From Ignavibacteria bacterium (GTDB lineage Bacteria; Bacteroidota; Ignavibacteria; Kapaibacteriales; UBA2268), in assembly GCA_031261605.1 (NCBI GenBank), contig JAISJI010000068.1, positions 2,771 to 66,770 of the forward strand: a stretch of DNA of 64,000 bases. The letters are read 5' to 3'. Made by a program: the position numbers and the translations under genes. Below are positions 13,409 through 64,000 of this stretch, one piece after another. The notes under the pieces are model-generated. The model was not told where the DNA came from and made no database searches. It was given only the letters and a program-made list of their open reading frames with translations. Within the stretch, counting starts at the first letter, position 1; every line of letters begins with the position of its first letter.

Positions 13409-13413
13409 ACAAG

Positions 13414-13486
<73 letters not shown>

Positions 13487-21398: not shown

Positions 21399-22658
21399 CT
21401 ATATTTCAATTTTCTTAAAACAAACCGTTGCATTGTGTCCGCCAAAGCCAAATGTATTGCTCAATGCAGCACTGATTTCACGTTCTTTCGGCTTGTTTGG
21501 CGTATAGTCCAAATCGCATTCTGGGTCAGGTGTTTCATAGTTAATTGTCGGTGGAACAATGCTGTGCTCCATCGCAAGTATTGTCGCAATCGCTTCTATT
21601 GCTCCTGCTGCTCCGAGCAAATGTCCGGTCATAGATTTTGTAGAACTGATAGACAACTTCTTGGCATAATCGCCAAAAGTCCCTTTGATAGCAATGGTTT
21701 CGTTCTTATCATTGAAGTAAGTTGATGTGCCGTGTGCATTAATGTAATCTATATCGGTCGGAAGTATTTTCGCATCCTCAATAGCAAGTTTCATTGAACG
21801 AACTGCACCTTCTCCACCATCCGCCGGCTGCGTAATATGAAAAGCATCATCGGTAAGACCAAAGCCAGCAATCTCGCAATATATCTTAGCACCGCGATTT
21901 TGTGCGTGCTCCAATGTCTCAAATATCAATATTCCTGCTCCTTCGCCTATCACAAAGCCATCTCTATCCTTGTCAAATGGACGACTTGCGTGCTCTGGGT
22001 CATCGTTACGTGTAGATAACGCCTTCATTGCATTGAAACCTCCTACTCCCATAGGCGATACAACCGATTCCGAACCACCAACCAGCATCACATCTGCATC
22101 GCCACGCTGCATAATCATAAGAGCATCTGCTATTGCGTGTGATGACGTCGCACAAGCCGATACTGTGCCATAGTTCGGTCCTTTCAATCCCCAACGAATA
22201 GCAATCTGTCCCGGAGTAATATCTGATATCAACATCGGTATAAAGAACGGCGAGATACTACTCGGATTTCCACCTGATTTTATTACTACTTCCTGCTGAT
22301 TATAATATGTCCACATTCCACCAATACCACTACCTATAACGCATCCAATACGCTCTCTGTTCTCTTTTTCGAAATCTATCCCAGAATCCTGAACAGCCAA
22401 TGTCGCCGCTGCCATTGCAAGACGAGTAAAATTATCCATTCGCTGGATTTCTTTGCGATTAAGAAACTGAAGCAAGTCCAAACCCTTTACTTCGCAAGCA
22501 AACTTGGTCTTGAAGTTAGTTGTATCAAAACCTGTAATCATAGCAGCACCACTCTTTCCGGCAAGCAATGCTTGCCAAAATTCATTCTTATTGTTGCCGA
22601 TGGCAGTAACCGGACCAAGCCCCGTTACGACTATTTTTGGGTAATTATATTTTGACAT
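21399..22658 (-). CDS. fabF: 3-oxoacyl-ACP synthase II.
   Basis: MSKYNYPKIVVTGLGPVTAIGNN... ~419 aa. KAS II active-site region ...ACATSSHAI... and HGTSTYFNDK. Lies downstream of acpP. Confidence 0.9.
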   Translation of the reverse strand: MSKYNYPKIVVTGLGPVTAIGNNKNEFWQALLAGKSGAAMITGFDTTNFKTKFACEVKGLDLLQFLNRKEIQRMDNFTRLAMAAATLAVQDSGIDFEKENRERIGCVIGSGIGGMWTYYNQQEVVIKSGGNPSSISPFFIPMLISDITPGQIAIRWGLKGPNYGTVSACATSSHAIADALMIMQRGDADVMLVGGSESVVSPMGVGGFNAMKALSTRNDDPEHASRPFDKDRDGFVIGEGAGILIFETLEHAQNRGAKIYCEIAGFGLTDDAFHITQPADGGEGAVRSMKLAIEDAKILPTDIDYINAHGTSTYFNDKNETIAIKGTFGDYAKKLSISSTKSMTGHLLGAAGAIEAIATILAMEHSIVPPTINYETPDPECDLDYTPNKPKEREISAALSNTFGFGGHNATVCFKKIEI

Positions 22659-23473: not shown

Positions 23474-24322
23474 TCAACATAACGCTGCGATATATCCACT
23501 ATATTCATGCTTTGAATTCTCTTTATTAATTGAATCATTTATCATCTCAAAATACTCCGGCAATATCTCTATCCCTATAGTGTTGCGGTGCATTCTATTA
23601 GCAACTATATTGGTCGTCCCTGAACCCGCAAATGGGTCAAGCACCAAGTCACCTTCTTTCGTAAATAACTTAATAAACCACTCCGGTAAATCCTCTGGAA
23701 ATGCTGCACTATGATTTTTATTATTGCATTCCGTGGCTAAGTGTAATACATTAGTGGGATATGCTTTTTTTCTATCTATCCAATTGGAAATATTTTTGCC
23801 AAATCCACTACCATTCTTGGAATTATCTCGTATCTTATCTGTATCACTCAAATTCCTAAGACGGGACTTCGCCCAATCGCCCATTTCTACCATCACTTCA
23901 TCCTGATACATATTAAAATGCTTGTCTTTATTGAATTGCAACAATCGCTCCCAAGCATCCCTAAATCTATTGGGCCACTTACCCGGAAAGCAATTCTTCT
24001 TATGCCAAATAAATTCCTCTGTCCAAAACCAGCCCTGCTTACGCATCTCAAGAATTAGTTCCATTACATAAGTGCTACGTTCACCTTCAACAACCTTTTC
24101 CTTAATATTCAAAATAAAAGTCCCTGTCGGCTTTAATATCCGCAACAATTCCTTCGAAATCGGAAGAAACCATTCCACATATTTATTCGGCGAAATTCCG
24201 CCATAAGTAGATTTCCGCTGGTCCGCATACGGCGGCGACGTAATAACTAAATCCACATAATTATCCGGCATCTTACTCATCGTTTGCAGACAATCTTCAT
24301 TATATATTTCGCAAAACTCCAT
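23474..24322 (-). CDS. Beta-class DNA amino-methyltransferase (N6-adenine or N4-cytosine). Appears solitary or orphan.
   Basis: Motif IV DLVITSPPY lies N-terminal to motif I DLVLDPFAGSGTT, which is the beta-class order. 282 aa. Confidence 0.85.
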   Translation of the reverse strand: MEFCEIYNEDCLQTMSKMPDNYVDLVITSPPYADQRKSTYGGISPNKYVEWFLPISKELLRILKPTGTFILNIKEKVVEGERSTYVMELILEMRKQGWFWTEEFIWHKKNCFPGKWPNRFRDAWERLLQFNKDKHFNMYQDEVMVEMGDWAKSRLRNLSDTDKIRDNSKNGSGFGKNISNWIDRKKAYPTNVLHLATECNNKNHSAAFPEDLPEWFIKLFTKEGDLVLDPFAGSGTTNIVANRMHRNTIGIEILPEYFEMINDSINKENSKHEYSGYIAALC

Positions 24323-24339
24323 AAACTCTTTCCAACACC

Positions 24340-24400
24340 TTCAAAAAAAATATATATTTATGTTTGTTTTTGTTTTTGTTACTTCTTCCATTCAATATGC
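24340..24400. repeat. Copy 2 of the ~60-bp direct repeat. It overlaps the 3' end of the 112-aa ORF and sits ~20 nt upstream of the methyltransferase start.
   Basis: aaaaaatatatatttatgtttgtttttgtttttgtta cttcttccattcaatatg. Aligns to 23031-23100. Confidence 0.6.
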
Positions 24401-24717
24401 CCATTCATATTGTATTTTTCAAATACCTTTAGAACTTCAGCACTAAAGGTTGTTAATTCTTTATCGCCTAATTTTTTAGATAACTCATACAGATGTATGA
24501 ACATTTTCTTTCCGGATTCTGTTTGCTTGTAAACCTTTTTCTCAAATAAAGTTTTCACCAAAAAATAATCTATAAAATTATCCTGACGAAGCAATATCTG
24601 CATATCAAAAAGCATCTCCCTTTCCAGTAAATCCCTATCCGATGGACTTTCGCTGTTAATTTCTTTAGCGATATAGTCCAATTCTTCTTGCTGTTCTTTT
24701 TTACTTAATTTAATCAT
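24379..24717 (-). CDS. Hypothetical 112-aa protein, translationally coupled to the upstream 367-aa ORF.
   Basis: ATGA overlap with the 367-aa ORF at 24714-24717. Charged, probably helical. No motif recognised. Confidence 0.5.
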   Translation of the reverse strand: MIKLSKKEQQEELDYIAKEINSESPSDRDLLEREMLFDMQILLRQDNFIDYFLVKTLFEKKVYKQTESGKKMFIHLYELSKKLGDKELTTFSAEVLKVFEKYNMNGHIEWKK

Positions 24718-25817
24718 ATCTGCAATGGTATTTGTATTCTTTCTCTTTTGTGTTGAATGTCTGATTCTAAGTGTTGCAATATCCTTGAGCCAAGCGAAGT
24801 AAATATCACCCTATCGTAAAATCCACTTGTTTTTACTTTTTCGGTAAGCTCTAATTCTTCACAATGATTACAAGAAAATCTAAGAACATCAGCAACAGTT
24901 CCTTCGGTGTAATCCATTTTGAAAAAACTATTTACAAAATCAAATTCTGATTTTTTTTGAAATGCCCGCCCACGAGGAAGCCATTCCCCATCTGTTAATG
25001 CAATGAATTTCAGAAAATAATAAATATTGATTTTGCATTTCTTTTCGTAAAAATTACCATTTAATAATGACTCCAGCAATATCCTCTTCTGCTCTACGCT
25101 TAGATTTATCCGCTTCAATTTATCTGTAATTTCCACTGCATTAATATTGTCTCTGAAGCGAACGCCAAAATCCGTAAGTTGTATCGTATTACGAACTTTA
25201 TTTAGCAAATCAAAATCCTCTGCAACTCTAACAGCGACATTAAATCTTGTTTTTGTTACTCCATCGCTAAAATTAAAAGCATCGCCAAAATCCTTAATCG
25301 CTAATCTGTCAGCATTATTCTCATAGAATGGGACAAACAACCTATTCAAACCACCGAGATGCGTAAAATTCAATGATATTGGTGGAGATAGTGGAACTCC
25401 GTTATTAATCAATGCCTTTTGTATTTCAGTATCATATAGCAACCTAATTTTATCTAAATCATAATCAAACCAAAGCAAATCATTTGCATCACAGAAAGTT
25501 ACAATTTCATTAGTATAATAAACCGGTGTTTGCTTGGCGAATAAAATCCCCACTTTGTGTTGAAAACCTTTCGCCAAAATAATATTTGTATATTGATTAC
25601 TTTGCTGCAAACAATAGGACAATTTTGCTTTACTATCTATTATAGTTTCAAGTTCTGTAATCAGAAAGCCATCATTCTTTATTTTATGAGCAAAATCAAT
25701 TCTACCATAAGCGGTTGTAAATTGCTGGCATACTTTATTCGCTAAAGGTAGAGAAATGCACTCTTGTAAATAATTCCTTTCTCTTAATAGAGTCCATTCC
25801 ACAAGGTATTCATTCAT
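24714..25817 (-). CDS. Hypothetical 367-aa protein. Candidate restriction endonuclease or defence nuclease with weak PD-(D/E)xK-like spacing. Function unknown.
   Basis: A GGAGG RBS precedes the ATG. N-terminal GRIDFAH...ITELETIIDSK could be a D...E..DxK nuclease motif. One CxxC (CNHCEE). Sits in a methyltransferase neighbourhood. Confidence 0.5.
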   Translation of the reverse strand: MNEYLVEWTLLRERNYLQECISLPLANKVCQQFTTAYGRIDFAHKIKNDGFLITELETIIDSKAKLSYCLQQSNQYTNIILAKGFQHKVGILFAKQTPVYYTNEIVTFCDANDLLWFDYDLDKIRLLYDTEIQKALINNGVPLSPPISLNFTHLGGLNRLFVPFYENNADRLAIKDFGDAFNFSDGVTKTRFNVAVRVAEDFDLLNKVRNTIQLTDFGVRFRDNINAVEITDKLKRINLSVEQKRILLESLLNGNFYEKKCKINIYYFLKFIALTDGEWLPRGRAFQKKSEFDFVNSFFKMDYTEGTVADVLRFSCNHCEELELTEKVKTSGFYDRVIFTSLGSRILQHLESDIQHKRERIQIPLQI

Positions 25818-25951: not shown

Positions 25952-26698
25952 CTACATCACCATCCCGCCATCTATATGAACCACCTGTCCCGTCAAATAA
26001 CTCGCATCTTCCGAACAAAAGAAACTAACCACATTCGCTATATCTTCCGCCTCTGCTGCCCGCTTAAGTGGTATCCCTTTCAAAAATTCCTGCTTCACTT
26101 CATCGCTCAATACATCCGTCATCGGTGTCCGAACAAAACCCGGCGCTACATAATTGCAAAGTATATTCCGACTACCAAGTTCCTTCGCTACCGACTTCGT
26201 AAAGCCGATTAATCCTGCTTTTGATGCCGAATAATTGGCTTGACCTGCGTTCCCCATAACTCCTACAACCGAACCCATATTCACAATGCGACCATAACGT
26301 TGAGACATCATATAGCGACTCACAACCTTCGTGCAAAGGAACACTCCCTTGAGATTAGTCGACAGCACAGCATCCCAATCGCTCTCATTCATCCGCATAA
26401 GCAAGTTATCACGGGTAATTCCAGCATTGTTGATTAAGAAATCAATACGCTGACTCTCGGCTATTATCGCATCCATAACGCTTTGCACCTGCTCGAAATT
26501 GGTAACATCGAGTTGCTTAACTATCGCATTCTTAGCCAATTCGGCATCTGTGATAAACACCTCTTCTGCATTTGGAATAGCATAATCAAGAGCATATACT
26601 TTCGCTCCTTCTTTGAGAAGACGTTCCACAATCGCTTTGCCGATACCACGACATCCGCCGGTTACTACGGCTATTTTATTTTCAAATCTATTACACAT
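25952..26698 (-). CDS. fabG: 3-oxoacyl-ACP reductase.
   Basis: SDR. IAVVTGGCRGIGKAI, NAG, YSASKAGLIGFTKSVAKE, and a C-terminal GQVVHIDGGM typical of FabG. Confidence 0.9.
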   Translation of the reverse strand: MCNRFENKIAVVTGGCRGIGKAIVERLLKEGAKVYALDYAIPNAEEVFITDAELAKNAIVKQLDVTNFEQVQSVMDAIIAESQRIDFLINNAGITRDNLLMRMNESDWDAVLSTNLKGVFLCTKVVSRYMMSQRYGRIVNMGSVVGVMGNAGQANYSASKAGLIGFTKSVAKELGSRNILCNYVAPGFVRTPMTDVLSDEVKQEFLKGIPLKRAAEAEDIANVVSFFCSEDASYLTGQVVHIDGGMVM

Positions 26699-27487: not shown

Positions 27488-29140
27488 CTACTCCCCAAAA
27501 CTATACACCGCCATATTCTCCAAATACTTGTCATCCACAACACGCACCGCTACATTATGAACACCACCTTCCGCAAAGTTATGAACCCGAACACCATTCT
27601 TGTCATACAAAACACTCGGATTAAATTTACCAACCTCCTGTGGAAACTTGTGTGCCGGTATCGGATAATTAAAATCCCAACTATAATTGATTATCACACT
27701 ATCACTCACCGCTCGAAATTCATACTTCCCATCCAACGTCTTGCTACAATCTATGCGAACTACTGGACGTTTCGCTACATCCACTATCTCGCTCACCAAC
27801 ACACGCTCTATCAATATACCATCCTCATTCTTTAACCGAGCCATCTCCTGAACCGCCTCCTTTGCAAAATCAAATGCTATGAAATAACCAACCGGTAAGC
27901 CATTCTCCTGCTTCTCCTTAAACTTCCGACCAGCGTGACATACCGAAAAAAACTTCTGTATCTCCACTCGCCCTATCTTATTCTTCCAACTCTTCACCTG
28001 TATCGGCACATCATCCTTCATCCCATCACTACCGTGGTCACCACGCTGCTTCTCATTCGGAGTGCCACCAAACTTACCTACTATCCACGTCTCAAACTCA
28101 AATGGGTCCATCGCTCGTAAGTCCTCCTCGGCGAAGTAGTGCTTCTCAATCTCGTAATTTGTAAATATTCCATTCGCTTGCAAACGCTTGTCTGTCACAT
28201 CTAACGCTGCGATGGACTGGTCTATTCCGATAAAATTCCGCTGCAAATTATTCGCCATCAACATTGTCGTCCCACCACCCATAAATGGGTCAAGCACCAC
28301 ATCTCCTTCGTTAGAGGATGCTTTGATAATCCGCTCAAGAAGTGCCAGCGGCTTCTGTGTAGGGTAACCAATCTTTTCTATAGATGTTCCTTGAACATTT
28401 TGTATATCAATCCAGTCGTTCCCGATTAATTGCCCCTTTGTCTCACTTAAATATCTTTTTATACGCAATCGTTGATGTTGAGATTTTGGAAAATATATTT
28501 TATTGTCCGCATCCCATTTTTGCATTGTTTCAAACGGACAACGCCAGCCATTTGCATTTGGCAAATACCCTTTATACTCATAGTTATATCCGCCCGGTCT
28601 TGTGTTTGTTAAATCTCCCAACGAATATTTTCCTTTACCATCCATATCATCATACTTGTAAAAATTACATGAATATTTTTCAGTAAGTTCAGAGTATATC
28701 GGATTAAAAGAAAAATTATTTGACTTAGAATAATACCAAATTGTATCTGTTAATACTGCCAATTTTTTCTTTGCATCATTGTGTGCATTGGTTCTTTTCC
28801 AAATTATATGCCCTCTAAAATTTTCATACCCAAATTCCTTATCCAAAATCATCACCCTAATATATGCATCGGCATGCCAGTCGCAATGCAAATATATAGA
28901 GCCGGTGGGCTTGAGCAAGCGATGCATTTCTTTCACTCGGTCGTAAAGCCAGTTGATATATTGGTCTATGCCACCACTCCATCTGTCCTCAAAGGAGCGT
29001 ATTTCGCCGGCATCTCCCCAAATAATTTCGTAATTACGATTAGAGAAGAATGGCGGGTCAAGGTAAATGAGAGCAATGCTTTCTGCGGGCATTTTCTTCA
29101 TTACTTCGAGGCAGTCGCCGAGTATTATTTTATTTTGCAT
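27488..29140 (-). CDS. Beta-class DNA amino-methyltransferase fused to an Mrr-cat (PD-(D/E)xK) restriction-endonuclease-like domain, with a C-terminal PKD-like beta-sandwich tail.
   Basis: Motif IV IALIYLDPPF, motif I DVVLDPFMGGGTT. Then FEFETWIVGKFGG...RGDHGSDGMKDDVPIQVKSWKNKIGRVEIQKF, which fits the Mrr-cat signature F..l....G....gDgGiDg....Q.K. The tail carries YSWDF ... GVHNVAVRVVDD. Confidence 0.75.
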   Translation of the reverse strand: MQNKIILGDCLEVMKKMPAESIALIYLDPPFFSNRNYEIIWGDAGEIRSFEDRWSGGIDQYINWLYDRVKEMHRLLKPTGSIYLHCDWHADAYIRVMILDKEFGYENFRGHIIWKRTNAHNDAKKKLAVLTDTIWYYSKSNNFSFNPIYSELTEKYSCNFYKYDDMDGKGKYSLGDLTNTRPGGYNYEYKGYLPNANGWRCPFETMQKWDADNKIYFPKSQHQRLRIKRYLSETKGQLIGNDWIDIQNVQGTSIEKIGYPTQKPLALLERIIKASSNEGDVVLDPFMGGGTTMLMANNLQRNFIGIDQSIAALDVTDKRLQANGIFTNYEIEKHYFAEEDLRAMDPFEFETWIVGKFGGTPNEKQRGDHGSDGMKDDVPIQVKSWKNKIGRVEIQKFFSVCHAGRKFKEKQENGLPVGYFIAFDFAKEAVQEMARLKNEDGILIERVLVSEIVDVAKRPVVRIDCSKTLDGKYEFRAVSDSVIINYSWDFNYPIPAHKFPQEVGKFNPSVLYDKNGVRVHNFAEGGVHNVAVRVVDDKYLENMAVYSFGE

Positions 29141-35008: not shown

Positions 35009-35116
35009 TTTTGGAATAGCCAGCCAACTAACCGACCCGAATAGGTATGAGGTGGGAAAGAGACCACACTAAATCCCTATCCGAAGGAAAGGAACTTTTA
35101 TAACAACAAATACAAT

Positions 35117-36433
35117 ATGCCAGAAGAGAACTTCACCAACACACTATACACCAACGACAACCTCTTCGTCCTAAATGGCTTAAATAGCGATTTGGTTGAT
35201 TTGATATACTTAGACCCACCATTCAATACCAAACGACTATTTTCTGCACCAATAGGTAGTAAAGCAGCCGGCTCGAGTTTCAAGGATATGTGGAATTGGC
35301 AAGATGTGAACGAAGCGTATCTTGATACTTTGGCAGAAAATTATCCGGCATTGACTGATTTCATTGCATCTACGAGTGTGGTGCATAGCAAAGCGATGGC
35401 TGCGTATCTAACATATATGGTGCAACGAATCGTCGAAATGCATCGCGTGCTAAAGGATACGGGCAGTTTATATTTGCATTGCGACCCGACTGCAAGCCAT
35501 TATTTGAAGGTGCTGTTGGATGAGGTTTTTGGTAAAAATAATTTTAGAAATGAAATTGTGTGGTGCTATAAAGAACGCGAAATATCCAAAAAATATTTTA
35601 ATAGAAAACACGATATTATTTTCTTTTACGTTAAATCAGAAAAATATTTATTTAACCCTACGAGATTGTTAGAACCATATAGCAAGGGGACGATTAAGAA
35701 ATTCAATTATACCGATGATGATGGACGCAGTTTTCAAATACGCGGCAAAGGCGGTGAATACACTGGAAAGCAAGGTCTCGATATAAAGTTAGAGCAAACA
35801 AGTCCAGATTTGGTGTATAGAGATTATTTGGATAAAAGTGGAGGAATATTGCCGCGTGATTGGTGGGAGATTCCATTCCTTAACAGAGCAGCCAAAGAAC
35901 GCACCGGCTACCCAACACAAAAACCGCTTGCTCTGTTGCAACGCATCATTAAGGCATCATCAAATGAAGGCGATATAGTTATGGACCCATTTTGTGGTTG
36001 TGCAACGGCTTGTGTTGCGGCTCAGCAACTCGGGAGGAAGTGGATTGGTATTGATGTAGAGGAGAATGCGGTTGATATTTTGATTGAGCGATTGAGTGAC
36101 GATGCTGGGATGTTCAAGGATTTTGTAGCGACAAAATTAATTCCCAAACGCACGGATTTAACTCTCGAACCACCATCGCAATCGGTAAAAGAACGCTTGT
36201 ACAAAGAACAAAATGGATGTTGCAACGGCTGTGGAAATGAATATTTAATGAAAGATATGGAAATAGACCACATCATTCCGAAAGCAAAAGGTGGTGGCGA
36301 TTACTACGAAAATTACCAGTTGTTATGTGGTAATTGCAATAGAATTAAGGGAAAAAATACAATGGAATTTTTGCGAATAAAGATACAAACGCGCAAGAAT
36401 TTACTGAAGGAAAAGATTATTTTCGGGGAATAA
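35117..36433 (+). CDS. Beta-class DNA amino-methyltransferase fused to a C-terminal HNH endonuclease domain. The AdoMet motif I is degenerate.
   Basis: Motif IV LIYLDPPF. Motif I region DIVMDPFCGCATA instead of FxGxGTT. C-terminal CCNGCGNEYLMKDMEIDHIIPKAKGGGDYYENYQLLCGNCNRIKG is an HNH motif (C..C...H...N...C..C). The core shares ~60% identity with the 27488..29140 methyltransferase (GYPTQKPLALLxRIIKASSNEGD). Confidence 0.8.
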   Translation: MPEENFTNTLYTNDNLFVLNGLNSDLVDLIYLDPPFNTKRLFSAPIGSKAAGSSFKDMWNWQDVNEAYLDTLAENYPALTDFIASTSVVHSKAMAAYLTYMVQRIVEMHRVLKDTGSLYLHCDPTASHYLKVLLDEVFGKNNFRNEIVWCYKEREISKKYFNRKHDIIFFYVKSEKYLFNPTRLLEPYSKGTIKKFNYTDDDGRSFQIRGKGGEYTGKQGLDIKLEQTSPDLVYRDYLDKSGGILPRDWWEIPFLNRAAKERTGYPTQKPLALLQRIIKASSNEGDIVMDPFCGCATACVAAQQLGRKWIGIDVEENAVDILIERLSDDAGMFKDFVATKLIPKRTDLTLEPPSQSVKERLYKEQNGCCNGCGNEYLMKDMEIDHIIPKAKGGGDYYENYQLLCGNCNRIKGKNTMEFLRIKIQTRKNLLKEKIIFGE

Positions 36434-36492
36434 TTACTATTTCCCCAACCAGACATTAATTATAAATATAATTCAAAAATAAGGAGAAATAT

Positions 36493-37308
36493 ATGGAAAA
36501 CCAAGAATTATCCACAAACCAAAACACAAAAGATACTTCTGAAACCAAAAAGAAATATCCTAAAAAAGAGTACGCTAAGAAGCCAAAAAGAGAGCCGATA
36601 GATTACTCTAATCTTCCACCTAATACTATTTACAATGCACTTGTAGAATCCAATATAGAGTTTAGTCGTAAGGACTTACGCAAAATCTCTAACGCCGTCC
36701 ACGAGAAGTTTGTCAAGCGATACGGCGAGGATAAAGAGCCAGAAAAAGTGCAACAAAAAGAAAATGAAACCACTTACAATGTTTTCGTTTATCCAAACGA
36801 AATGCGCAGAGAAATCAAGAACATAGTCCAATGGTTCTTCCAAGTTAAGGATAAGCGGTCAGAGAAGCATATCCGATTACTCGCTCTTGAAAAATTGCAG
36901 AAATTGAAAAAACTTAACTCACCCGAATATGAAATGCTGCTCGTTAAGTTCAATATCGCCGAGGACGAAAGACGCAAACGCGAAAAAGCAGAACAACTAC
37001 TCCTAAAAGAGAAGGCAGCAAAGAAACTGCAACGACAACAACAGCAAACTACTAAAAAGCCGTTCAATAAAAATAACTATAAGAGCCCAAACTTTAAACC
37101 AAAATACAATAAAGATATCAAAGATAATAAGAAACCATACGTGAAACGCGAAAATGGTGATAAGAAAGTTGATGGTGATAAATCGACGCCGGCTTTTGTT
37201 GGAAGACGCTATAATGCTGATGCTCAAAAAGAAACTACTACTAATGATGAAGAAGTTAATATATTCAAAACTAAACCCACAAATTCTGAAACCATAGACA
37301 ACGAATAG
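36493..37308 (+). CDS. Hypothetical Lys/Glu-rich (highly charged) protein.
   Basis: 271 aa, about 40% K/E/R/D. An AAGGAG RBS precedes the start. No motif recognised. Confidence 0.5.
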   Translation: MENQELSTNQNTKDTSETKKKYPKKEYAKKPKREPIDYSNLPPNTIYNALVESNIEFSRKDLRKISNAVHEKFVKRYGEDKEPEKVQQKENETTYNVFVYPNEMRREIKNIVQWFFQVKDKRSEKHIRLLALEKLQKLKKLNSPEYEMLLVKFNIAEDERRKREKAEQLLLKEKAAKKLQRQQQQTTKKPFNKNNYKSPNFKPKYNKDIKDNKKPYVKRENGDKKVDGDKSTPAFVGRRYNADAQKETTTNDEEVNIFKTKPTNSETIDNE

Positions 37309-38549
37309 TGAACGCAAAAATAATACAAATAGCAAAATATATGGCAGCCGTTGCATCCTGCATCCTTATTGTCGGATGCAATGACCTGCCGACAGAAGTG
37401 GGAACAGCATTCCTACAAGACACCATAGGAATATCTATTGTAGCAGGTCAGGAGAACCGCATTATGCCTAATGCTTACTCTTACGCTGTTACACCTGCTG
37501 CAGAGCGAAACACCGGAAATATACTTATCGGAATCAATGGCAATACAAGAGCTGCTGCACTGATTCGCTTCAATGTTCCGATTGGTATGGCGGATATTGC
37601 AGATAGAATTGAAAATTGCCAACTGCATCTTATTCCAAATACTTACGCTATTGGTGATACGATAAGCAACCAACTCAACTTCAATATTATGGAAGTTACA
37701 AGCCATTGGACGCAAGAGACAACTACCCCAGAGGATGTGCTATCGTCCGATTTGCTGTATGCTGGTGGAATGGAAATCGCAAAATTTAGTGGCACTATCA
37801 ATAGAACGGACTCGCTTACAGATACGCTGATAATGGACTTCCCAAAGGATTTGCTCGCTCAATGGTTACACAATATTAACGATGGCACGAACATAACGGA
37901 TACCGTTTGGGGAATTGCTATTATTCCGCAAGCCGGCTCTAATATCATAAATGCCTTTAAGTCCTACTCAAGTGCTGCGGCTACACCCGGGACGTTTATT
38001 AAAATTAGATATTGGGATACAGCCCATACTACATTGGATTCATTCAATATGCTATCGGCAGAGGAGACGACTTTCGCTGCTACTACAGATGAGTATAACA
38101 CTGAGGATATTGTATTGCAAGGTGCAACTCGCACCCATAGCCGTTTTAACTTCAATCTATCAGAAGTGCCACAATTCGCAAGCGTTAATCTTGCTGAACT
38201 CACTCTTACATTAGATGAAGCAAATACCGTTCTCGGTAATAAGCCAGTGCCAGAGCAAATATATATGCATTACTTTGATGATACTACTTCCGGCGAAAAA
38301 CTTACGCATAGCCAAGCCGTTATCGTCGGTAACTACGATAGCACAAGCAAGACATATACGTTCCGTAGTTTCTTGAATTATCCACTGAATAAATTCGTTC
38401 GACAACAGAAGGGTATCGGAACATTAGTGCTTACTTTCGGCTCATTAGAATACGAATACAACCAACTAAATAAACTCGCTTTCTATGGATTAAACGCTAC
38501 GGACATCGCTAAACGACCTAAGTTCCGCATCGTATATTCCGCAGAATAA
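37308..38549 (+). CDS. Hypothetical lipoprotein.
   Basis: GTG start overlapping the upstream stop (taGtg). Lipobox ...CILIVGC. Confidence 0.5.
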   Translation: MNAKIIQIAKYMAAVASCILIVGCNDLPTEVGTAFLQDTIGISIVAGQENRIMPNAYSYAVTPAAERNTGNILIGINGNTRAAALIRFNVPIGMADIADRIENCQLHLIPNTYAIGDTISNQLNFNIMEVTSHWTQETTTPEDVLSSDLLYAGGMEIAKFSGTINRTDSLTDTLIMDFPKDLLAQWLHNINDGTNITDTVWGIAIIPQAGSNIINAFKSYSSAAATPGTFIKIRYWDTAHTTLDSFNMLSAEETTFAATTDEYNTEDIVLQGATRTHSRFNFNLSEVPQFASVNLAELTLTLDEANTVLGNKPVPEQIYMHYFDDTTSGEKLTHSQAVIVGNYDSTSKTYTFRSFLNYPLNKFVRQQKGIGTLVLTFGSLEYEYNQLNKLAFYGLNATDIAKRPKFRIVYSAE

Positions 38550-54799: not shown

Positions 54800-55900
54800 T
54801 TAAATAAATTTACGAACTCCACGACGATTTCCATCGGAATTAAAAAATAATAAATCATCAACGCTAAACCAGCAATCTATTGAATTTCCACGCCTTATAG
54901 ATAAATTTGGAGCAGTTTTAATTCTTTTTTGAGTATCGCCAGTCGTAAAATAAATAATTGATTCATTACCCAAAAATTCAATATTATCAACAATAATGCG
55001 AATATTTACATTGCGGTCTGAATTATTATTTCCCAGTTGAATATTTTCCGGTCTAATAGCAATAGTCAGCGGCGTAACTCCTTGATTATTACGGAGTAAC
55101 TGCGGAATTAAAAACTCAGAATTATTTTCACGAAAATTATTTCCGTCATTAATTCCGACAAAAAAATTAATATTCGGCGTGCCAATAAAATCCGCAACAA
55201 AAATATTTTCCGGATTATGATAAATTTCGTAAGGCGTATCAAATTGCTGCAAAATTCCATTTTTTAACACCGCAATTTTCGTTCCCATAGTCATCGCTTC
55301 GGTCTGGTCGTGCGTAACATAAATTGACGTAACCCCATATTTTCTATGGAGATTAATGATTTCTTGACGCATCTGAATACGCAATTTTGCATCCAAATTC
55401 GACAGCGGCTCATCAAAAAGAAAAAAATCCGGCTGCCGAATAATAGCCCGACCAAGTGCAACACGTTGACGCTGTCCACCAGAGAGTTCTCGCGGCTTCC
55501 TTTTGATAAGTTCAAGCAATCCAATGGTTTGTGCAACCTCCAAAACTCTATTTCGTATCTCCTTATTATTCAATTTGTTATTGCCTTTATGAACTTTTAG
55601 CGGAAACGCAATATTATCAAAAACCGACAAATGCGGATACAAAGCATACTCCTGAAAAACCATTCCTATATTTCTTTTATTCGCATCTAAGCCATTGGAA
55701 ATTTTACCATTTAGCAATAAACTCCCACTCGTAATTTCTTCCAAACCAGCAATCATTCGCAAAACAGTAGTTTTCCCACAGCCAGAAGGTCCGACCAGCA
55801 CAACAAAATCGCCATCCTCAGCGATAAAAGAAATATTTTTTACCGCCTGAGTATTATTTGAAAAAGTTTTTGTGATATTTTGTAACTCTATATATGCCAT
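54800..55900 (-). CDS. ABC transporter ATP-binding protein (MalK/PotA-like, with a C-terminal TOBE-like domain).
   Basis: Walker A GPSGCGKTT, signature LSGGQRQRVALGRA, Walker B FLFDEPLSNLD. Confidence 0.85.
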   Translation of the reverse strand: MAYIELQNITKTFSNNTQAVKNISFIAEDGDFVVLVGPSGCGKTTVLRMIAGLEEITSGSLLLNGKISNGLDANKRNIGMVFQEYALYPHLSVFDNIAFPLKVHKGNNKLNNKEIRNRVLEVAQTIGLLELIKRKPRELSGGQRQRVALGRAIIRQPDFFLFDEPLSNLDAKLRIQMRQEIINLHRKYGVTSIYVTHDQTEAMTMGTKIAVLKNGILQQFDTPYEIYHNPENIFVADFIGTPNINFFVGINDGNNFRENNSEFLIPQLLRNNQGVTPLTIAIRPENIQLGNNNSDRNVNIRIIVDNIEFLGNESIIYFTTGDTQKRIKTAPNLSIRRGNSIDCWFSVDDLLFFNSDGNRRGVRKFI

Positions 55901-55950
55901 TAGGTTGCAATTATTTAAATTATTATTTTATAGCGATTTATTGAAAAAAA

Positions 55951-57114
55951 TTAAATATTATTTATTATTTTATCGAATTGATTAATAATATTGATATGCG
56001 AAAATCTATTTAAACTTAAGTCAATGATATTTCTATCTTTAGGAGTAGCATTAAGGATTAATTCAGACAATTCATCCGAATTTCCAACATTAAATAAATA
56101 CCCATTTTTCCCATTTTCTAAAATCTCTGCCGGACCCGATGGACAATTTGAGCAAATGACTGAATTATTTACAGTTAGCGCCTCCGCAACGACCATTCCA
56201 AATCCCTCATAATTAGAACTTAAAATAAATTTATCGCAATTTTTCATCCAATTGTATGGATTAATTTTTCCGCCAAGTAAATAAATATTTTTATTGAATT
56301 TGCACTTATTTTTCAAGGAGTTAATTTGATTAATTTCCGTATCACCACCCGTTCCAATTATATACAAATTTCCATCATAGCCATTATTTTTCGCCAAATC
56401 AAATGCAGTAAATAAAGTTTGAAAATCTTTTTGCACTGTATCCAAACGCGAAACCATTAATAAATATTTTGAATTTAAATAATTCATTTCATCTGTTGTA
56501 AATTCCTCATTTGCAAGCGTTTTTATTTGCTCAATATCAATTGGATTGTATAGAACTAACGTTTTATTTTTCAATGTGTTATCCAAATGACAAATATTAT
56601 TTCTTATATCTTCACTAACACAAATTATTTTATCATATTTAGAAATTTTATTTAAATATTTTTTTATTTTATTTTTATTTTTAAGCCAACTTTCTATATT
56701 AATATGCATCCAAGTCATTGTTTTTGAAGTAGTTACATATTTCAATTTATTCAGATGAAAATTATGAAAATCAATAAAAATATCAGGTTTATAAGCATTG
56801 CAAATTTCCTTAAATCTATTATTTTTATAATTCTTATTTTTAATTAATTGAATATTGAAATTAATTTTGTCAAAAACGCTATTATTTCTATTTTTAGAAA
56901 CACAATTGAAGTGTGTAACTCTATTATTATCAACAAGATGTATTATTGGGACATCAATATTATTGCCTATCACATTATTTATATCCAAACCCATATCAAA
57001 AACAATTTTTGTCTCAAAATTGCTTTGATTTGCTAAATAATTTATATAAATGGATTGGATTTTTTCAATGCCACCGAAGCCAGTATTATGGCTTTTAAAT
57101 AATATTTTTTTCAC
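55951..57114 (-). CDS. Glycosyltransferase family 4.
   Basis: C-terminal EGFGMVVAEALTVNNSVICSN.PSGPAEIL (GT4 E-x7-E region). Confidence 0.75.
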   Translation of the reverse strand: MKKILFKSHNTGFGGIEKIQSIYINYLANQSNFETKIVFDMGLDINNVIGNNIDVPIIHLVDNNRVTHFNCVSKNRNNSVFDKINFNIQLIKNKNYKNNRFKEICNAYKPDIFIDFHNFHLNKLKYVTTSKTMTWMHINIESWLKNKNKIKKYLNKISKYDKIICVSEDIRNNICHLDNTLKNKTLVLYNPIDIEQIKTLANEEFTTDEMNYLNSKYLLMVSRLDTVQKDFQTLFTAFDLAKNNGYDGNLYIIGTGGDTEINQINSLKNKCKFNKNIYLLGGKINPYNWMKNCDKFILSSNYEGFGMVVAEALTVNNSVICSNCPSGPAEILENGKNGYLFNVGNSDELSELILNATPKDRNIIDLSLNRFSHINIINQFDKIINNI

Positions 57115-57811
57115 TAATATTTCTTGTAAATAATTTTCTAATATTTAAAATAAACCTTGATATTTCACGACTTATTTTAAAAACAATATTAATACTGCTT
57201 TTTCTATTTTTAATTGTTGAATTTAATGAGTTTTCATTTTCTTTAATTAAATATGGAAAATAAAAAATTGTAGGAATTTTATGTATCCAAAAACTATCCA
57301 AATAATCATCCACAGGATATAGCCAAGCCCTTGATTTTTCAATGAATTGCCTTGCTGCAAACGGAGTTAAATAATACCCTTGCGCACCAGAAACTCCATT
57401 TCGTGTAATATAAAAGTTGCCGTTTATTTTTTTACTTTTTTTGTCGAATAAACACATTAATTTAGTATAATTATATGGGCTTTTTTTTATGACATCTAAT
57501 CCATTTTCAAAATCTGGAAGTAAGGCAACATCGTCCTCTAAAATCACAATATCTTCTTTTAATTCAAGGCACTTCTGCCATAAAGAATAATGCGAAGCAA
57601 AGCAAGCAATTTCGCCATCAGTCAACGACTTTCCCCGAATTAATTTGCTAAAAAAAGGATTAATTTTATTAAAAAAAATACCAATTTTCTGCGAATTAAT
57701 TGCATTAAAAAAAATAAATTCATTTTTATCTGAATTAATGCTATCCATCTGAAAAATCATAGAGTTACGTCTATTTATTTCCGTTTCTAAATTTATAATA
57801 AATATTTTCAT
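57095..57811 (-). CDS. Glycosyltransferase family 25 (LPS/LOS biosynthesis, Lic2B/LgtB-like).
   Basis: N-terminal MKIFIINLETEINRRNSM matches GT25. 20-nt overlap with the GT4 gene. Confidence 0.65.
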   Translation of the reverse strand: MKIFIINLETEINRRNSMIFQMDSINSDKNEFIFFNAINSQKIGIFFNKINPFFSKLIRGKSLTDGEIACFASHYSLWQKCLELKEDIVILEDDVALLPDFENGLDVIKKSPYNYTKLMCLFDKKSKKINGNFYITRNGVSGAQGYYLTPFAARQFIEKSRAWLYPVDDYLDSFWIHKIPTIFYFPYLIKENENSLNSTIKNRKSSINIVFKISREISRFILNIRKLFTRNISEKNII

Positions 57812-57812
57812 T

Positions 57813-58493
57813 TTATTCGTTAAGTAAATCAGGACGAATATTTTTAGTTTTAATTAAAGATTGTTCATTTCGCCATTTTGCAATTTCTTTATGATTGCCC
57901 GATAATAATATTTCAGGAACAGCATAACCCTTGTAATTTGATGGTCTTGTGTATTGTGGTGACTCCAATAATCCATCCATCAACGAGTCATCTAAAGCGG
58001 ATTCAGAATCACCAATCGCCTCTGGTATTAACCTAACTACTGAATCTACAATGACTAATGCTGGAATTTCACCGCCAGTGAGCACATAATCTCCAATTGA
58101 TAACTCTAATGTTATCAATGTGTTACGAATTCGCTGGTCAATTCCTTTATAATGCCCACAAAGAATAATAATATTATTTAAAAGCGAAATTTTATTGCAA
58201 TCAGATTGCGTAAGTACCGGTGCATCGGGGGTTACGAAAATAATTTCGTCATAATTTCTCTGGGATTTTAATTTTTCAATGCAATCAAAAATCGGCTGAC
58301 ATTTCAACAGCATTCCAGCGGCACCGCCAAAAGGTGCATCGTCAATATGGCGAAATTTATCCAAAGCATAATCGTGCAAATTATGGAGAAAAATCTCAAT
58401 AAGTCCTTTATTTTTAGCGTTATATATAATACTCGAATTCAACATTGATTCCATTGATTCTGGAACGGCTGAAATAATATCAATTCTCATCAA
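57813..58493 (-). CDS. trmD: tRNA (guanine37-N1)-methyltransferase.
   Basis: MRIDIISAVPE, PFGGAAGMLL, TGGEIPALVIVDSVVRLIPEA. Confidence 0.9.
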   Translation of the reverse strand: MMRIDIISAVPESMESMLNSSIIYNAKNKGLIEIFLHNLHDYALDKFRHIDDAPFGGAAGMLLKCQPIFDCIEKLKSQRNYDEIIFVTPDAPVLTQSDCNKISLLNNIIILCGHYKGIDQRIRNTLITLELSIGDYVLTGGEIPALVIVDSVVRLIPEAIGDSESALDDSLMDGLLESPQYTRPSNYKGYAVPEILLSGNHKEIAKWRNEQSLIKTKNIRPDLLNE

Positions 58494-58502
58494 AATAAAT
58501 AA

Positions 58503-59501
58503 TTATAATTGCACAAGCCCTATTTTTTTATAGACCTTACATAAAGTTTTAAATGCAGTTTTATTAGCTTTTTCCATACCATCTTTAATAATATTATTTA
58601 AATAATTTTTATCCAATTTTATTTTTTCATATTCATTTCTAATCGGTTTAATAAATTCAATAATTGCATCTGCAGTGGTATTTTTTAAATCTCCATAAGT
58701 TTTTCCAATAAAATTATTCTCTATATTTATCAATGAGTTACCTGTAGAAACACTGAGCAAAGTAAGCAAATTTGTAATTCCTGGTTTATTATCTGCACAT
58801 TTAATTTCAGTGCCACTATCAGTAACACTACGTTTAATTTTATTGCGAATTTGGTCATCGGAATCGGTCAGAAAAATAATATTTTTTTCATTTTCATCCG
58901 ATTTTGACATTTTTTTTGTCGGCTCTTGCAGCGACATAATTCTTGCACCTATTTTCGGAATAAATGGCTCCGGAATTTTAAATGTATCCGAATAATGATA
59001 ATTAAATCGCTGTGCGACATTTCTGGTAAGTTCCAAATGCTGTTTTTGGTCATCTCCGATTGGCACTAAGTCCGCCTGATAAAGTAGTATATCCGCTGCC
59101 ATTAAGACAGGATACGCAAATAGTCCAACATTAATATTGTCAGAATGTGCTTGCGATTTATCTTTAAATTGTGTCATTTTGGCACACTCACTATAGCCAG
59201 TAAAACAACTCAAAATCCACTGCAATTGTGAATGTGCAGGAACGTGAGATTGGACGAAAAGTGTTGATTTTTCGGGACTTATACCGCACGCCACATACAT
59301 AGCAATCGTGTCCATTGTTTTATCGCGTAAAACAGACGGCTCCTGACGAATTGTCATAGTATGGAGGTCTGCAATCATATAAAAACATTGGTAATCATCC
59401 TGCAACTGCTGCCAATTTGTCAGTGCCCCTGCAAGATGCCCGATTGTAAGATTGCCAGATGGCTGAATTCCGCTAAGAATTATTTTTTGATTATTTTCCA
59501 T
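58503..59501 (-). CDS. trpS: Tryptophan--tRNA ligase.
   Basis: SGIQPSGNLTIGH (HIGH-like), KMSKS. 332 aa. Confidence 0.9.
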   Translation of the reverse strand: MENNQKIILSGIQPSGNLTIGHLAGALTNWQQLQDDYQCFYMIADLHTMTIRQEPSVLRDKTMDTIAMYVACGISPEKSTLFVQSHVPAHSQLQWILSCFTGYSECAKMTQFKDKSQAHSDNINVGLFAYPVLMAADILLYQADLVPIGDDQKQHLELTRNVAQRFNYHYSDTFKIPEPFIPKIGARIMSLQEPTKKMSKSDENEKNIIFLTDSDDQIRNKIKRSVTDSGTEIKCADNKPGITNLLTLLSVSTGNSLINIENNFIGKTYGDLKNTTADAIIEFIKPIRNEYEKIKLDKNYLNNIIKDGMEKANKTAFKTLCKVYKKIGLVQL

Positions 59502-59513
59502 ATTTTATTTTTA

Positions 59514-60971: not shown

Positions 60972-61018
60972 TCCCCTTAAAATAAAACTACTTAAAGTTT
61001 TTTGGCACGGTTTTTGCT

Positions 61019-61027
61019 GGGGGGGGG
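61019..61027. repeat. G9 homopolymeric tract (C9 on the coding strand) in the aspS/downstream-gene intergenic region.
   Basis: Read directly: ctggggggggggatt gives nine consecutive G in a ~36% GC background. Lies 48 nt upstream of the TTG start of 59514..60971. Confidence 0.7.
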
Positions 61028-61073
61028 ATTTATTGATTTCAAAGGACTTATGGGTTTTTTGTTGACAATTTTA

Positions 61074-62897: not shown

Positions 62898-62930
62898 AAT
62901 TTATTTGTTTGTTTTATATTCTAGTTTATT

Positions 62931-63800: not shown

Positions 63801-63826
63801 TTTTTATTTATAGTGTTAGCGAAAAA

Positions 63827-64000
63827 TTACGCCCGCTCTATTTTATCGAAACCACAGAAGGGCTGCAATACTTCGGGGATATGCAAAACGCCATCGCTGT
63901 AATAATTTTCTATCAATGCAACCATTATACGCGAAGTCGCAAGCCCGGAGCCATTGAGCGTATGAACAAATTCCGGCTTGCTATCACCTGTGCGTTTGAA
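63827..64000 (-). CDS. serS: Seryl-tRNA synthetase, C-terminal fragment. The gene continues beyond the window.
   Basis: Minus-strand translation reads ...[47 protein letters not shown], matching the SerS C-terminus. Confidence 0.8.

What the first reader, a model, noticed from the sequence alone, without database searches (positions are those of the whole stretch)
35117..37308. Paralogous methyltransferase fused to HNH nuclease, with a degenerate AdoMet motif and a downstream Lys/Glu-rich partner
The 438-aa protein shares a ~60% identical core with the 550-aa methyltransferase (GYPTQKPLALL[Q/E]RIIKASSNEGD[IV]V[ML]DPF). Its C-terminus is an HNH endonuclease motif (CCNGCGN...DHIIPKAKGG...CGNCNRIKG) instead of Mrr-cat. 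Its motif I reads DPFCGCATA rather than FxGxGTT. That suggests altered or lost cofactor binding: a methyltransferase scaffold kept as a DNA-recognition module for a nuclease. Downstream are a 271-aa extremely charged K/E-rich protein and a lipoprotein, the latter with overlapping start and stop. The module could be a defence or selfish element (HNH-methyltransferase fusions are common in phage and plasmid contexts). No phage genes are visible here.
Basis: partly seen in the sequence, partly recalled or inferred. Interest (0 to 1): 0.6.

Follow-up and report, generated by a model that had tools for sequence, protein, structure and literature searches.

The report
Single-gene methyltransferase–HNH restriction-modification enzyme
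This gene encodes an intact DNA methyltransferase fused to an HNH nuclease, most likely a self-contained restriction-modification enzyme from a very large uncharacterised family with swappable DNA-recognition cassettes; its "degenerate" cofactor motif is the family norm, and the charged downstream protein is an unrelated resident gene.

Summary
The ORFs, domains and motif strings are real. ORF 35117-36433 encodes a beta-class PF01555 DNA methyltransferase fused to a C-terminal HNH nuclease.

- "DPFCGCAT" is not decay. It is the consensus of the family (118 of the 120 closest homologues), and the catalytic DPPF motif and motif X are invariant.
- The K/E-rich ORF is not a partner. It has three homologues among 5.8 billion proteins and is absent from every related locus. 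In a relative it lies directly after asd with no methyltransferase between, so the fusion gene looks like a single-gene insertion.

Its framework and HNH catalytic residues are highly conserved around a hypervariable central recognition cassette: frameworks 90-100% identical usually carry unrelated cassettes. The same scaffold also occurs with Mrr-type or T5orf172 nucleases instead of HNH. Copies sit alone among housekeeping genes at a different site in each genome.

Best reading: a single-chain (Type IIC-like) restriction-modification enzyme that moves as a one-gene unit. No activity was tested, and I found no published characterisation of this architecture.

The parts
35009..35116 (.). Intergenic leader between the asd stop codon and the fusion gene; the left edge of the inferred insertion lies somewhere in here
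   Evidence: The equivalent asd-to-K/E gap in L083 is about 40 bp. There is no Rfam match and no unusual folding (z -0.46). The sequence is not conserved upstream of homologues. No terminal repeat or target duplication beyond chance.
35117..36433 (+). Gene for the 438-aa beta-class DNA methyltransferase - HNH nuclease fusion
   Evidence: ORF. PF01555 plus PF01844. The identical protein P0001 is annotated in an Ignavibacteria MAG. AF2 model has mean pLDDT 92.5 and pTM 0.89. The MTase fold matches M.BceJIV, M.RsrI, CcrM, M.MboIIA and Type III Mod.
35213..35224 (+). Motif IV, DPPF (residues 33-36), the catalytic motif for amino-methyl transfer
   Evidence: DPPF is present in all 120 closest homologues. 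D33, P34 and P35 are invariant and F36 is at least 90% conserved in 147 sequences.
35657..35851 (+). Hypervariable central cassette (residues about 181-245), the inferred target-recognition domain
   Evidence: Majority-residue fraction is 0.18-0.29 with 13-43% gaps at residues 181-240, against 0.77-0.87 in the motif blocks. Of pairs with 90-100% identical frameworks, 77% have cassettes under 25% identical. The position between motifs VIII and X is where beta-class enzymes carry the TRD (established knowledge).
35906..35926 (+). Motif X, GYPTQKP (residues 264-270), part of the AdoMet pocket
   Evidence: T267, Q268, K269 and P270 are invariant; G264 and P266 are at least 90% conserved.
35984..36010 (+). 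Motif I, DPFCGCATA (residues 290-298): the family's version of FxGxG (F-C-G-C-A)
   Evidence: Found in 118 of the 120 closest homologues. D290, F292 and G294 are invariant; C293, C295, A296 and T297 are at least 90% conserved. A, G, M and V alternate at position 296 in the wider clade.
36179..36379 (+). HNH nuclease domain (residues about 355-421) with a Cys4 zinc site
   Evidence: PF01844, PF14279 and PF13395 matches. C369, C372, C404 and C407 are invariant; D384, H385, N399, N408 and K411 are at least 90% conserved. Sequence matches to the HNH domains of Cas9, IscB and McrA.
36493..37308 (+). K/E-rich 271-aa ORF: a resident lineage-specific gene and NOT part of the module (listed because the finding's coordinates include it)
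   Evidence: No hit in Pfam, NCBIfam, PADLOC or PHROGs. Only 3 homologues. The homologue in L083 directly follows asd. The conserved core is residues about 41-165. AF2 models the core (residues about 41-187) at pLDDT 83-95 with disordered tails. No fold match; best E 0.46.
27488..29140 (-). Second, independently acquired fusion: beta-class methyltransferase plus a C-terminal Mrr-type PD-QxK nuclease (550 aa), lying between rpsP and murC
   Evidence: Pfam. It has its own large family. E350, D372 and Q381-V382-K383 are at least 95% conserved. Neighbours identified.

Best explanation
The gene encodes a self-contained, single-polypeptide restriction-modification enzyme (Type IIC-like).

Proposed mechanism:
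- The N-terminal beta-class methyltransferase binds AdoMet through motif X (GYPTQKP) and motif I (DPFCGCAT). It methylates, most probably, adenine N6 through DPPF, at a short sequence read by the central variable cassette.
- The C-terminal zinc-stabilised HNH domain cuts or nicks DNA at or near sites that are not methylated.
- Because one recognition cassette serves both activities, exchanging it changes restriction and modification together. That would explain why near-identical frameworks carry unrelated cassettes.
- The gene needs no partner and spreads between phyla as a one-gene unit that lands between housekeeping genes.

Shown here: domain content, conservation of both catalytic centres, cassette hypervariability, interchangeable nuclease modules, solitary and variable genomic context, and the empty site.
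Inferred, not shown: methylation activity and target base, cleavage, the blocking of cleavage by methylation, and a defence role.
For: - Both domains score well above Pfam thresholds.
- Both catalytic centres are conserved across 147 sequences that are 39-86% identical to the query: DPPF; TQKP; D290, F292 and G294; the Cys4 site; and D384-H385, N399 and N408.
- The central cassette is hypervariable while the framework stays one cluster. P0010 is 97% identical in the framework and 100% in the HNH, but 17% in the cassette.
- Tandem copies with different cassettes occur in L001/L165 and L171, and P0036/P0051 carry adjacent locus tags.
- The same scaffold carries nucleases of three unrelated folds at the same position: HNH, Mrr_cat and T5orf172. 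L010 combines the window's cassette type with an Mrr nuclease. This argues that what is selected is nuclease function as such.
- No partner recurs in about 45 family loci, and the flanks are mostly unrelated housekeeping genes.
- Empty site: asd is followed directly by the K/E homologue in L083.
- Proteins from different phyla are 75-77% identical, whereas asd from the relative L083 is only 44% identical.
- Precedents: Type IIC enzymes, including BtgZI with an N-terminal MTase and a C-terminal PD-QxK nuclease (PMC4081073), and R-M genes inserting without transposon structures in termite-gut bacteria (PMC4760077).
Against: - No biochemical or genetic data exist for any member that I could find.
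- Characterised Type IIC enzymes use gamma-class, or in one case alpha-class, methyltransferases with PD-(D/E)XK nucleases, not beta-class with HNH.
- PADLOC recognises only generic methyltransferase models.
- Most contexts are not defence islands; only L081 sits beside another R-M pair.
- Beta-class enzymes often work as dimers, and how one HNH per chain would make a regulated double-strand cut is unknown.
- The last glycine of motif I is Ala. That is conserved, but it is unproven that it supports normal AdoMet binding.
Confidence: 0.55

Rival explanations
1. A selfish orphan methyltransferase whose HNH domain acts as a homing-type nuclease. The nuclease cuts naive genomes so that the gene copies itself in, and methylation serves another role (epigenetic, or protection from other restriction enzymes) rather than self/non-self discrimination.
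For: - It is a single-gene insertion between ancestrally adjacent genes, with no integrase, transposase or repeats.
- HNH, T5orf172/GIY-YIG-like and PD-(D/E)XK are the nuclease folds used by free-standing homing endonucleases (established knowledge).
- Identity across phyla is 60-80%.
- Some genomes carry several copies (L002 and L003; L004 and L012).
Against: - Homing genes recur at one conserved target site. Here every locus is different and no neighbour is shared.
- Homing does not explain about 80-100 different recognition cassettes among 147 sequences on a constant framework.
- It also does not explain the strict retention of methyltransferase catalytic motifs.
- R-M genes are themselves known to move in this way (PMC4760077), so mobility does not discriminate between the two readings.
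Confidence: 0.2
2. An active methyltransferase whose C-terminal HNH is not a restriction nuclease. It could be a DNA-binding or clamping module, as in the C-terminal domain of CcrM, or a nickase serving repair, replication or recombination.
For: - Viral relatives of the scaffold very often carry a C-terminal PD-(D/E)XK-fold domain that also matches Pfam's 'NACHT-associated inactive REase' model. A phage benefits from a methyltransferase but less obviously from a restriction nuclease.
- The AF2 model packs the HNH tightly against the methyltransferase (pTM 0.89).
Against: - The HNH catalytic residues D384, H385, N399 and N408 are at least 90% conserved, not just the zinc ligands.
- The Mrr-type fusion in the same window likewise keeps E, D and QxK at 95% or more.
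- A pure DNA-binding role would not require three different nuclease folds, each with intact active sites.
Confidence: 0.15
3. One reading: the methyltransferase domain has lost cofactor binding or catalysis and survives only as a sequence-recognition scaffold that guides the HNH nuclease, possibly together with the K/E-rich protein.
For: - Motif I lacks the last glycine of FxGxG (sequence).
- Inactive enzyme folds reused as readers are known in other defence proteins (general knowledge).
Against: - DPPF, TQKP, D290, F292 and G294 are invariant, and C-G-C-A-T is itself conserved at 90% or more.
- A and G alternate at the variant position among close relatives, including proteins that are methyltransferases with no nuclease attached.
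- A sequence-specific nuclease with no protecting methylation would attack its own chromosome, and no companion methyltransferase recurs nearby.
- The K/E ORF is absent from all related loci.
Confidence: 0.05

Closest known systems
Type IIC ('combined') restriction-modification enzymes, especially BtgZI
   Same: Methyltransferase and nuclease lie in one polypeptide. As in BtgZI, the methyltransferase is N-terminal and the nuclease C-terminal (PMC4081073). One recognition module presumably serves both activities, which in MmeI-type enzymes lets specificities diversify. That matches the cassette variability seen here. The enzyme can stand alone without a partner gene.
   Different: Known Type IIC enzymes are mostly an N-terminal PD-(D/E)XK nuclease plus a gamma-class (NPPY) methyltransferase with a C-terminal specificity domain. 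BtgZI is alpha-class plus PD-QxK. Here the methyltransferase is beta-class (DPPF; motif order IV-VIII, TRD, X, I), the TRD is internal, and the nuclease is HNH. No activity data exist.
Beta-class DNA N6-adenine/N4-cytosine methyltransferases (M.BceJIV, M.RsrI, CcrM, M.MboIIA; Type III Mod subunits)
   Same: Best sequence and structural matches for residues about 1-330. Same motif order and same placement of the TRD. Like phase-variable Type III mod genes, the central TRD is exchanged between otherwise conserved alleles.
   Different: None of the solved relatives carries a nuclease domain. Type III Mod works with a separate Res helicase-nuclease subunit, and none is present here. Motif I ends in Ala rather than Gly.
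HNH nucleases of restriction or defence type (McrA, Cas9/IscB HNH, HNH Type II enzymes such as KpnI)
   Same: Beta-beta-alpha-metal HNH with a D-H...N...N catalytic pattern and a CxxC...CxxC zinc site.
   Different: Those proteins obtain target recognition from their own N-terminal domains, from a guide RNA, or from a separate methyltransferase partner. Here the HNH is appended to a methyltransferase-TRD unit.
The window's own 550-aa methyltransferase-Mrr fusion and the viral methyltransferase-Mrr_cat fusions (for example Streptomyces phage Hippo gp48)
   Same: The same architectural idea: a beta-class methyltransferase with a C-terminal nuclease-fold domain. L010 combines the query's cassette type with an Mrr domain.
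   Different: The nuclease has a different fold. Motif I is canonical (FMGGGT or FCGCGT). The viral forms are only 35-47% identical to the query, and none carries an HNH.

Membership tests
Beta-class N6/N4 DNA methyltransferase (Pfam PF01555) | Profile match above the curated threshold | tested here: met
   172.7 bits against a cut-off of 26.7, residues 27-322.
Beta-class N6/N4 DNA methyltransferase (Pfam PF01555) | Catalytic motif IV (D/N/S)PP(Y/F/W) | tested here: met
   DPPF at residues 33-36. Present in all 120 closest homologues and invariant in the 147-sequence alignment.
Beta-class N6/N4 DNA methyltransferase (Pfam PF01555) | Beta-class permutation: motifs IV-VIII, then the TRD, then motifs X and I | tested here: met
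   DPPF (33-36), variable block (181-245), GYPTQKP (264-270), DPFCGCAT (290-297). The fold matches M.RsrI, M.MboIIA and CcrM.
Beta-class N6/N4 DNA methyltransferase (Pfam PF01555) | AdoMet-binding motif I with strict FxGxG spelling | tested here: not met
   The motif reads F-C-G-C-A, so the last Gly is Ala. This is the consensus of the subfamily (118/120; at least 90%) and alternates with Gly in relatives. It is therefore a conserved variant, not decay, and the strict spelling is not required for Pfam membership. From memory and not verified here, M.PvuII also lacks the last Gly (FGGSN).
Beta-class N6/N4 DNA methyltransferase (Pfam PF01555) | Demonstrated AdoMet binding and DNA methylation | not testable with these tools
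   Needs biochemistry or methylome sequencing.
HNH nuclease (Pfam PF01844) | Profile match, catalytic D-H...N...N/H, and Cys4 zinc site | tested here: met
   44.9 bits against a cut-off of 21.4. C369, C372, C404 and C407 are invariant; D384, H385, N399 and N408 are at least 90% conserved.
Type IIC combined restriction-modification enzyme | Methyltransferase and endonuclease domains in one polypeptide, both with intact catalytic residues | tested here: met
Type IIC combined restriction-modification enzyme | Functions without an obligatory partner gene | tested here: met
   No neighbour recurs in about 45 family loci.
Type IIC combined restriction-modification enzyme | Sequence-specific cleavage that is prevented by the enzyme's own methylation | not testable with these tools
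   Requires in vitro cleavage and in vivo restriction assays.
Type IIC combined restriction-modification enzyme | Typical architecture (N-terminal PD-(D/E)XK plus gamma-class NPPY methyltransferase); typical, not strictly defining | tested here: not met
   Here the arrangement is a beta-class DPPF methyltransferase followed by a C-terminal HNH. The review lists BtgZI as the one exception to the typical arrangement.
Free-standing homing endonuclease gene | Recurrent insertion at the same conserved target site in different genomes | tested here: not met
   The flanks differ in every locus examined.
Modification-dependent (Type IV-like) nuclease with an inactivated methyltransferase as reader | Loss or decay of the methyltransferase catalytic motifs | tested here: not met
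   DPPF and motif X are invariant, and motif I is conserved.
Phage HNH (terminase-associated) or phage-borne methyltransferase-HNH | Phage genomic context, or close homologues in phage genomes | tested here: not met
   No phage genes flank the gene. All phage hits are below 60% identity, and the best ones examined are methyltransferase-only (Marinitoga phage MPV1) or an Mrr_cat fusion (Streptomyces phage Hippo gp48). None of 76 viral-contig relatives has an HNH. No PHROG spans both domains.

The most novel reading that the evidence does not exclude
These proteins are the first glimpse of a very abundant, uncharacterised class of one-gene restriction-modification enzymes. The class would be built from three exchangeable parts: a constant beta-class methyltransferase framework, a plug-in recognition cassette (about 80-100 types among 147 sequences), and a plug-in nuclease (HNH, Mrr-type or T5orf172). 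Their nuclease might also drive their own insertion between housekeeping genes, making them minimal mobile elements that cross phylum boundaries within a shared habitat such as the termite gut.
Probability: 0.3. Interest if true: 0.65.

Novelty: new variant of a known kind. Interest (0 to 1): 0.4.

Why it matters
If these fusions are active single-chain restriction-modification enzymes, they extend the Type IIC class to a beta-class-methyltransferase/HNH design that the reviews I read do not describe. They would also offer a natural library of many DNA specificities on one small (about 440 aa) framework, which is attractive for enzyme discovery and engineering.

The cassette-swap pattern and the bare single-gene insertions are a clean case study of how restriction-modification genes diversify and spread between phyla.

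For this particular finding, the practical result is corrective. The "degenerate" cofactor motif is a conserved family signature, and the charged neighbour is unrelated.

Tried and rejected
- Conserved partner for the fusion gene: tblastn of all window neighbours against 160 related loci and all-against-all ORF comparison of family loci found nothing shared.
- Insertion scars: repeat search and alignment of upstream regions gave only chance-level matches.
- Structured RNA in the 108-bp leader: no Rfam hit, and folding z-score of -0.46.
- tRNA integration site: the only tRNA is at 13413-13486, far from the gene.
- Promoter and terminator scan: no more hits than in shuffled sequence.
- PADLOC: only generic methyltransferase models.
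- Function of the K/E-rich protein: no family hit and no fold match (best E 0.46).
- First attempt to count recognition cassettes by single-linkage clustering failed. The segment still contained conserved motifs and everything chained into one cluster. I replaced it with a column-restricted pairwise analysis.
- Exact-sequence contig look-ups for P0001, P0009, P0010 and P0011 found nothing, so I could not test whether the near-identical-framework allele P0010 sits at the same locus.
- Literature searches for a characterised methyltransferase-HNH fusion found none. REBASE could not be queried.
Full report
**1. What is in the sequence**

ORF 35117-36433 (+) encodes 438 aa. It is followed by ORF 36493-37308 (271 aa) and ORF 37308-38549 (413 aa). 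The last has a GTG start that overlaps the previous TAG by one base, and a lipobox-like LIVGC.

Pfam places PF01555 (N6_N4_Mtase) at residues 27-322 (E 1.4e-50) and HNH (PF01844, PF14279) at 369-419. NCBIfam and the PDB sequence search agree. The N-terminal 330 residues resemble CcrM, YhdJ-type enzymes, M.BceJIV, M.RsrI and Type III Mod. The C-terminus resembles the HNH domains of Cas9, IscB and McrA.

The 550-aa ORF on the minus strand (27488-29140) is PF01555 plus a weak Mrr_cat match. The two proteins are 34% identical over 379 aa. Only the stretch of about 60 residues from GYPTQKP is around 60% identical. The identical 438-aa protein is on record from an Ignavibacteria MAG.

**2. The "degenerate" motif I**

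- I aligned 147 HNH-bearing relatives that are 39-86% identical to the query. D33-P34-P35, T267-Q268-K269-P270, D290, F292 and G294 are invariant. C293, C295, A296 and T297 are at least 90% conserved.
- A full-library HMMER search with the methyltransferase domain alone gave 3808 cluster representatives at E<1e-30. Among the best 150, motif I is FCGCAT in 80, FAGCAT in 14, FCGSGT in 13 and FCGCGT in 11. These variants occur with and without a nuclease tail.
- A Hyphomicrobiales protein (L010) is 57% identical in the methyltransferase domain and reads DFFCGCGTT.

So "F-C-G-C" is this clade's way of writing FxGx. The only deviation is Gly to Ala at the final position, and that position is fixed in the subfamily while the rest of the cofactor and catalytic apparatus is invariant. 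This is purifying selection, not decay.

The AF2 model is confident throughout (mean pLDDT 92.5, pTM 0.89). Its methyltransferase part superposes on solved beta-class enzymes.

**3. The K/E-rich "partner"**

- The 271-aa protein has no family match in Pfam, NCBIfam, PADLOC or PHROGs.
- It has only three homologues among 5.8 billion proteins, whereas the fusion family has thousands.
- tblastn of this ORF and of the lipoprotein, asd, NlpC/P60 and thioredoxin-like neighbours found nothing in 80 genome loci or 80 metagenome loci. At least 44 of those loci carry true family members.
- One K/E homologue (P0274) could be placed on a contig, L083. The order there is DivIC, asd, a 40-bp gap, the K/E homologue, then an overlapping signal-peptide gene, with no methyltransferase. 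asd is 44% identical and the K/E core 55% identical to the window proteins, and the ribosome-binding region of the K/E gene is similar in both.

The K/E gene is therefore a resident lineage-specific gene that belongs with asd and its own downstream gene. The fusion gene lies between two ancestrally adjacent genes.

The K/E protein has a conserved core of about 125 residues. AF2 models residues about 41-187 well as helices, a beta-hairpin and a long helical hairpin, flanked by disordered low-complexity tails. It has no fold match, so its function remains unknown.

**4. Anatomy of the family**

*Framework and cassette.* Conservation along the protein is sharply modular. The majority-residue fraction is 0.77-0.87 in the motif blocks but 0.18-0.29 with many indels at residues 181-240. 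That is where beta-class enzymes carry the target-recognition domain. Pairwise analysis shows that among pairs with 90-100% identical frameworks, 77% have cassettes under 25% identical. Average-linkage clustering gives about 80-100 cassette types among 147 sequences. P0010, from another Ignavibacteria MAG, is 97% identical in the framework and 100% in the HNH, but 17% in the cassette.

*Tandem copies.* Tandem copies that differ mainly in the cassette occur in Paludibacter (L001/L165) and in L171. P0036 and P0051 carry adjacent locus tags.

*Nuclease module.* The HNH keeps its Cys4 zinc site and D384-H385, N399 and N408. The nuclease module is itself exchangeable. On the same scaffold, Pfam finds HNH; Mrr_cat/NA-iREase1 (L010, P0132, Streptomyces phage Hippo gp48); or T5orf172 (P0157, P0176, P0259). 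L010 pairs the window's cassette type with an Mrr domain.

*The 550-aa protein.* It belongs to a separate large family in which the Mrr-type residues E350, D372 and Q381-V382-K383 are at least 95% conserved.

**5. Genomic behaviour**

The fusion gene stands alone, and its flanks are different in each genome:

| Locus | Upstream | Downstream |
|---|---|---|
| Window | asd | K/E-rich gene |
| L001 | UvrA | second tandem copy |
| L002 | glutamate dehydrogenase | PEMT-like gene |
| L003 | no Pfam match (Opp permease beyond it) | FAD-dependent protein |
| L004 | no Pfam match | Dus |
| L005 | Poly_export gene | 116-aa ORF (no Pfam match), then a second Poly_export gene |
| L007 | solute-binding protein | no Pfam match |
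| L009 | hydantoinase | HEAT-repeat protein |
| L081 | MvaI/BcnI R-M pair | lysS |

- No integrase, transposase, tRNA, terminal repeat, target duplication or conserved flank accompanies the gene.
- Two MAGs carry two copies each at different loci.
- Proteins from Bacteroidota and Chitinivibrionia MAGs are 75-77% identical to the Ignavibacteria protein. Many of the closest hits come from MAGs whose names point to termite-gut samples; this is my inference from the isolate codes. That is far more similar than asd is between the window and L083, and it implies horizontal spread.
- The family is not phage- or plasmid-borne in the collections searched.
- Viral contigs do carry many relatives of the scaffold, at 35-47% identity. 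All 76 scored have the canonical FCGCG motif and a long C-terminal extension, which is detectably Mrr-like in 25 of them. None has an HNH.

**6. Most likely mechanism and rivals**

The best-supported reading is a single-chain, Type IIC-like restriction-modification enzyme. An active, probably N6-adenine (DPPF), methyltransferase and an HNH nuclease would share one recognition cassette. Self DNA would be protected, and unmodified sites cut or nicked.

This reading accounts for four observations:
- both active sites are retained;
- no partner is needed;
- nuclease folds are interchangeable;
- cassettes diversify on a constant framework. The Type II review describes the same logic for MmeI-type enzymes and notes BtgZI as a characterised enzyme with an N-terminal methyltransferase and a C-terminal nuclease (PMC4081073).

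R-M genes inserting without transposon structures have been reported in termite-gut bacteria (PMC4760077).

I put this reading at about 0.55 because nothing has been tested biochemically. The rivals are:
- a homing-type selfish gene (0.2), weakened by the absence of a common insertion site and by the cassette diversity;
- a methyltransferase with a non-restriction HNH (0.15), weakened by conserved nuclease catalytic residues;

**7. Comparison with what is known, and novelty**

Membership in PF01555 and in the HNH family is established. Membership in "Type IIC" is met for architecture and autonomy but untestable for activity. The design (beta-class methyltransferase, internal TRD, C-terminal HNH) differs from the arrangements described in the reviews I could read.

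I found no paper describing or characterising it, and I could not query REBASE, where such genes may already be listed as putative. I therefore rate it a new variant of a known kind, with moderate interest. The finding's two specific hooks are refuted. The family-level picture (modular, abundant, mobile, uncharacterised) is worth an experiment.

Noticed in passing
window 23474-25817 (minus strand): A third PF01555 methyltransferase (282 aa, 23474-24322) lies with two ORFs that have no family match (112 aa at 24379-24717; 367 aa at 24714-25817). They sit in a 33% GC island between fabF (21399-22658) and fabG (25952-26698). This looks like a conventional Type II R-M insertion with an unrecognised endonuclease.
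   Followed up: partly
window 27488-29140 (minus strand): The 550-aa methyltransferase-Mrr fusion sits between rpsP and murC. It belongs to its own very large family. The Mrr-type E...D...QVK residues are at least 95% conserved, and there is a further C-terminal region of about 90 aa with no annotation.
   Followed up: partly
L001 5998-8313 (same contig as L165); L171 2674-4078; proteins P0036 and P0051: Methyltransferase-HNH genes occur as head-to-tail tandem pairs with near-identical frameworks and unrelated central cassettes. This could mean two specificities, or the two strands of an asymmetric site.
   Followed up: partly
L085-L164 (IMG/VR viral contigs); L082 3971-5614 (Streptomyces phage Hippo gp48): Viral genomes commonly encode this methyltransferase scaffold fused to a C-terminal PD-(D/E)XK-fold domain (Mrr_cat/NA-iREase1). 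In phage Hippo it lies near the serine integrase gene (one small ORF between them). Why a phage keeps a nuclease-fold domain on its methyltransferase is unexplained.
   Followed up: partly
window 36493-37308; L083 1543-2301: The K/E-rich protein is a near-orphan with three homologues. It has a conserved, confidently folded core (residues about 41-187) between disordered K/N/E-rich tails. It lies after asd and overlaps a downstream secreted or lipoprotein gene in both loci. No fold match was found.
   Followed up: yes
protein P0121 (1598 aa): A giant protein with three PF01555 matches, the best hit to the query's methyltransferase domain lying at its residues 661-953. It looks like a multi-methyltransferase polyprotein.
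   Followed up: no
window 55000-64000: GC content falls to 26-33%, against about 40% elsewhere in the window. This may be another foreign island.
   Followed up: no
L005 1301-4600: In a Prevotellaceae MAG the fusion gene, together with a 116-aa ORF, sits between two Poly_export paralogues. This suggests insertion into a tandem gene pair.
   Followed up: no
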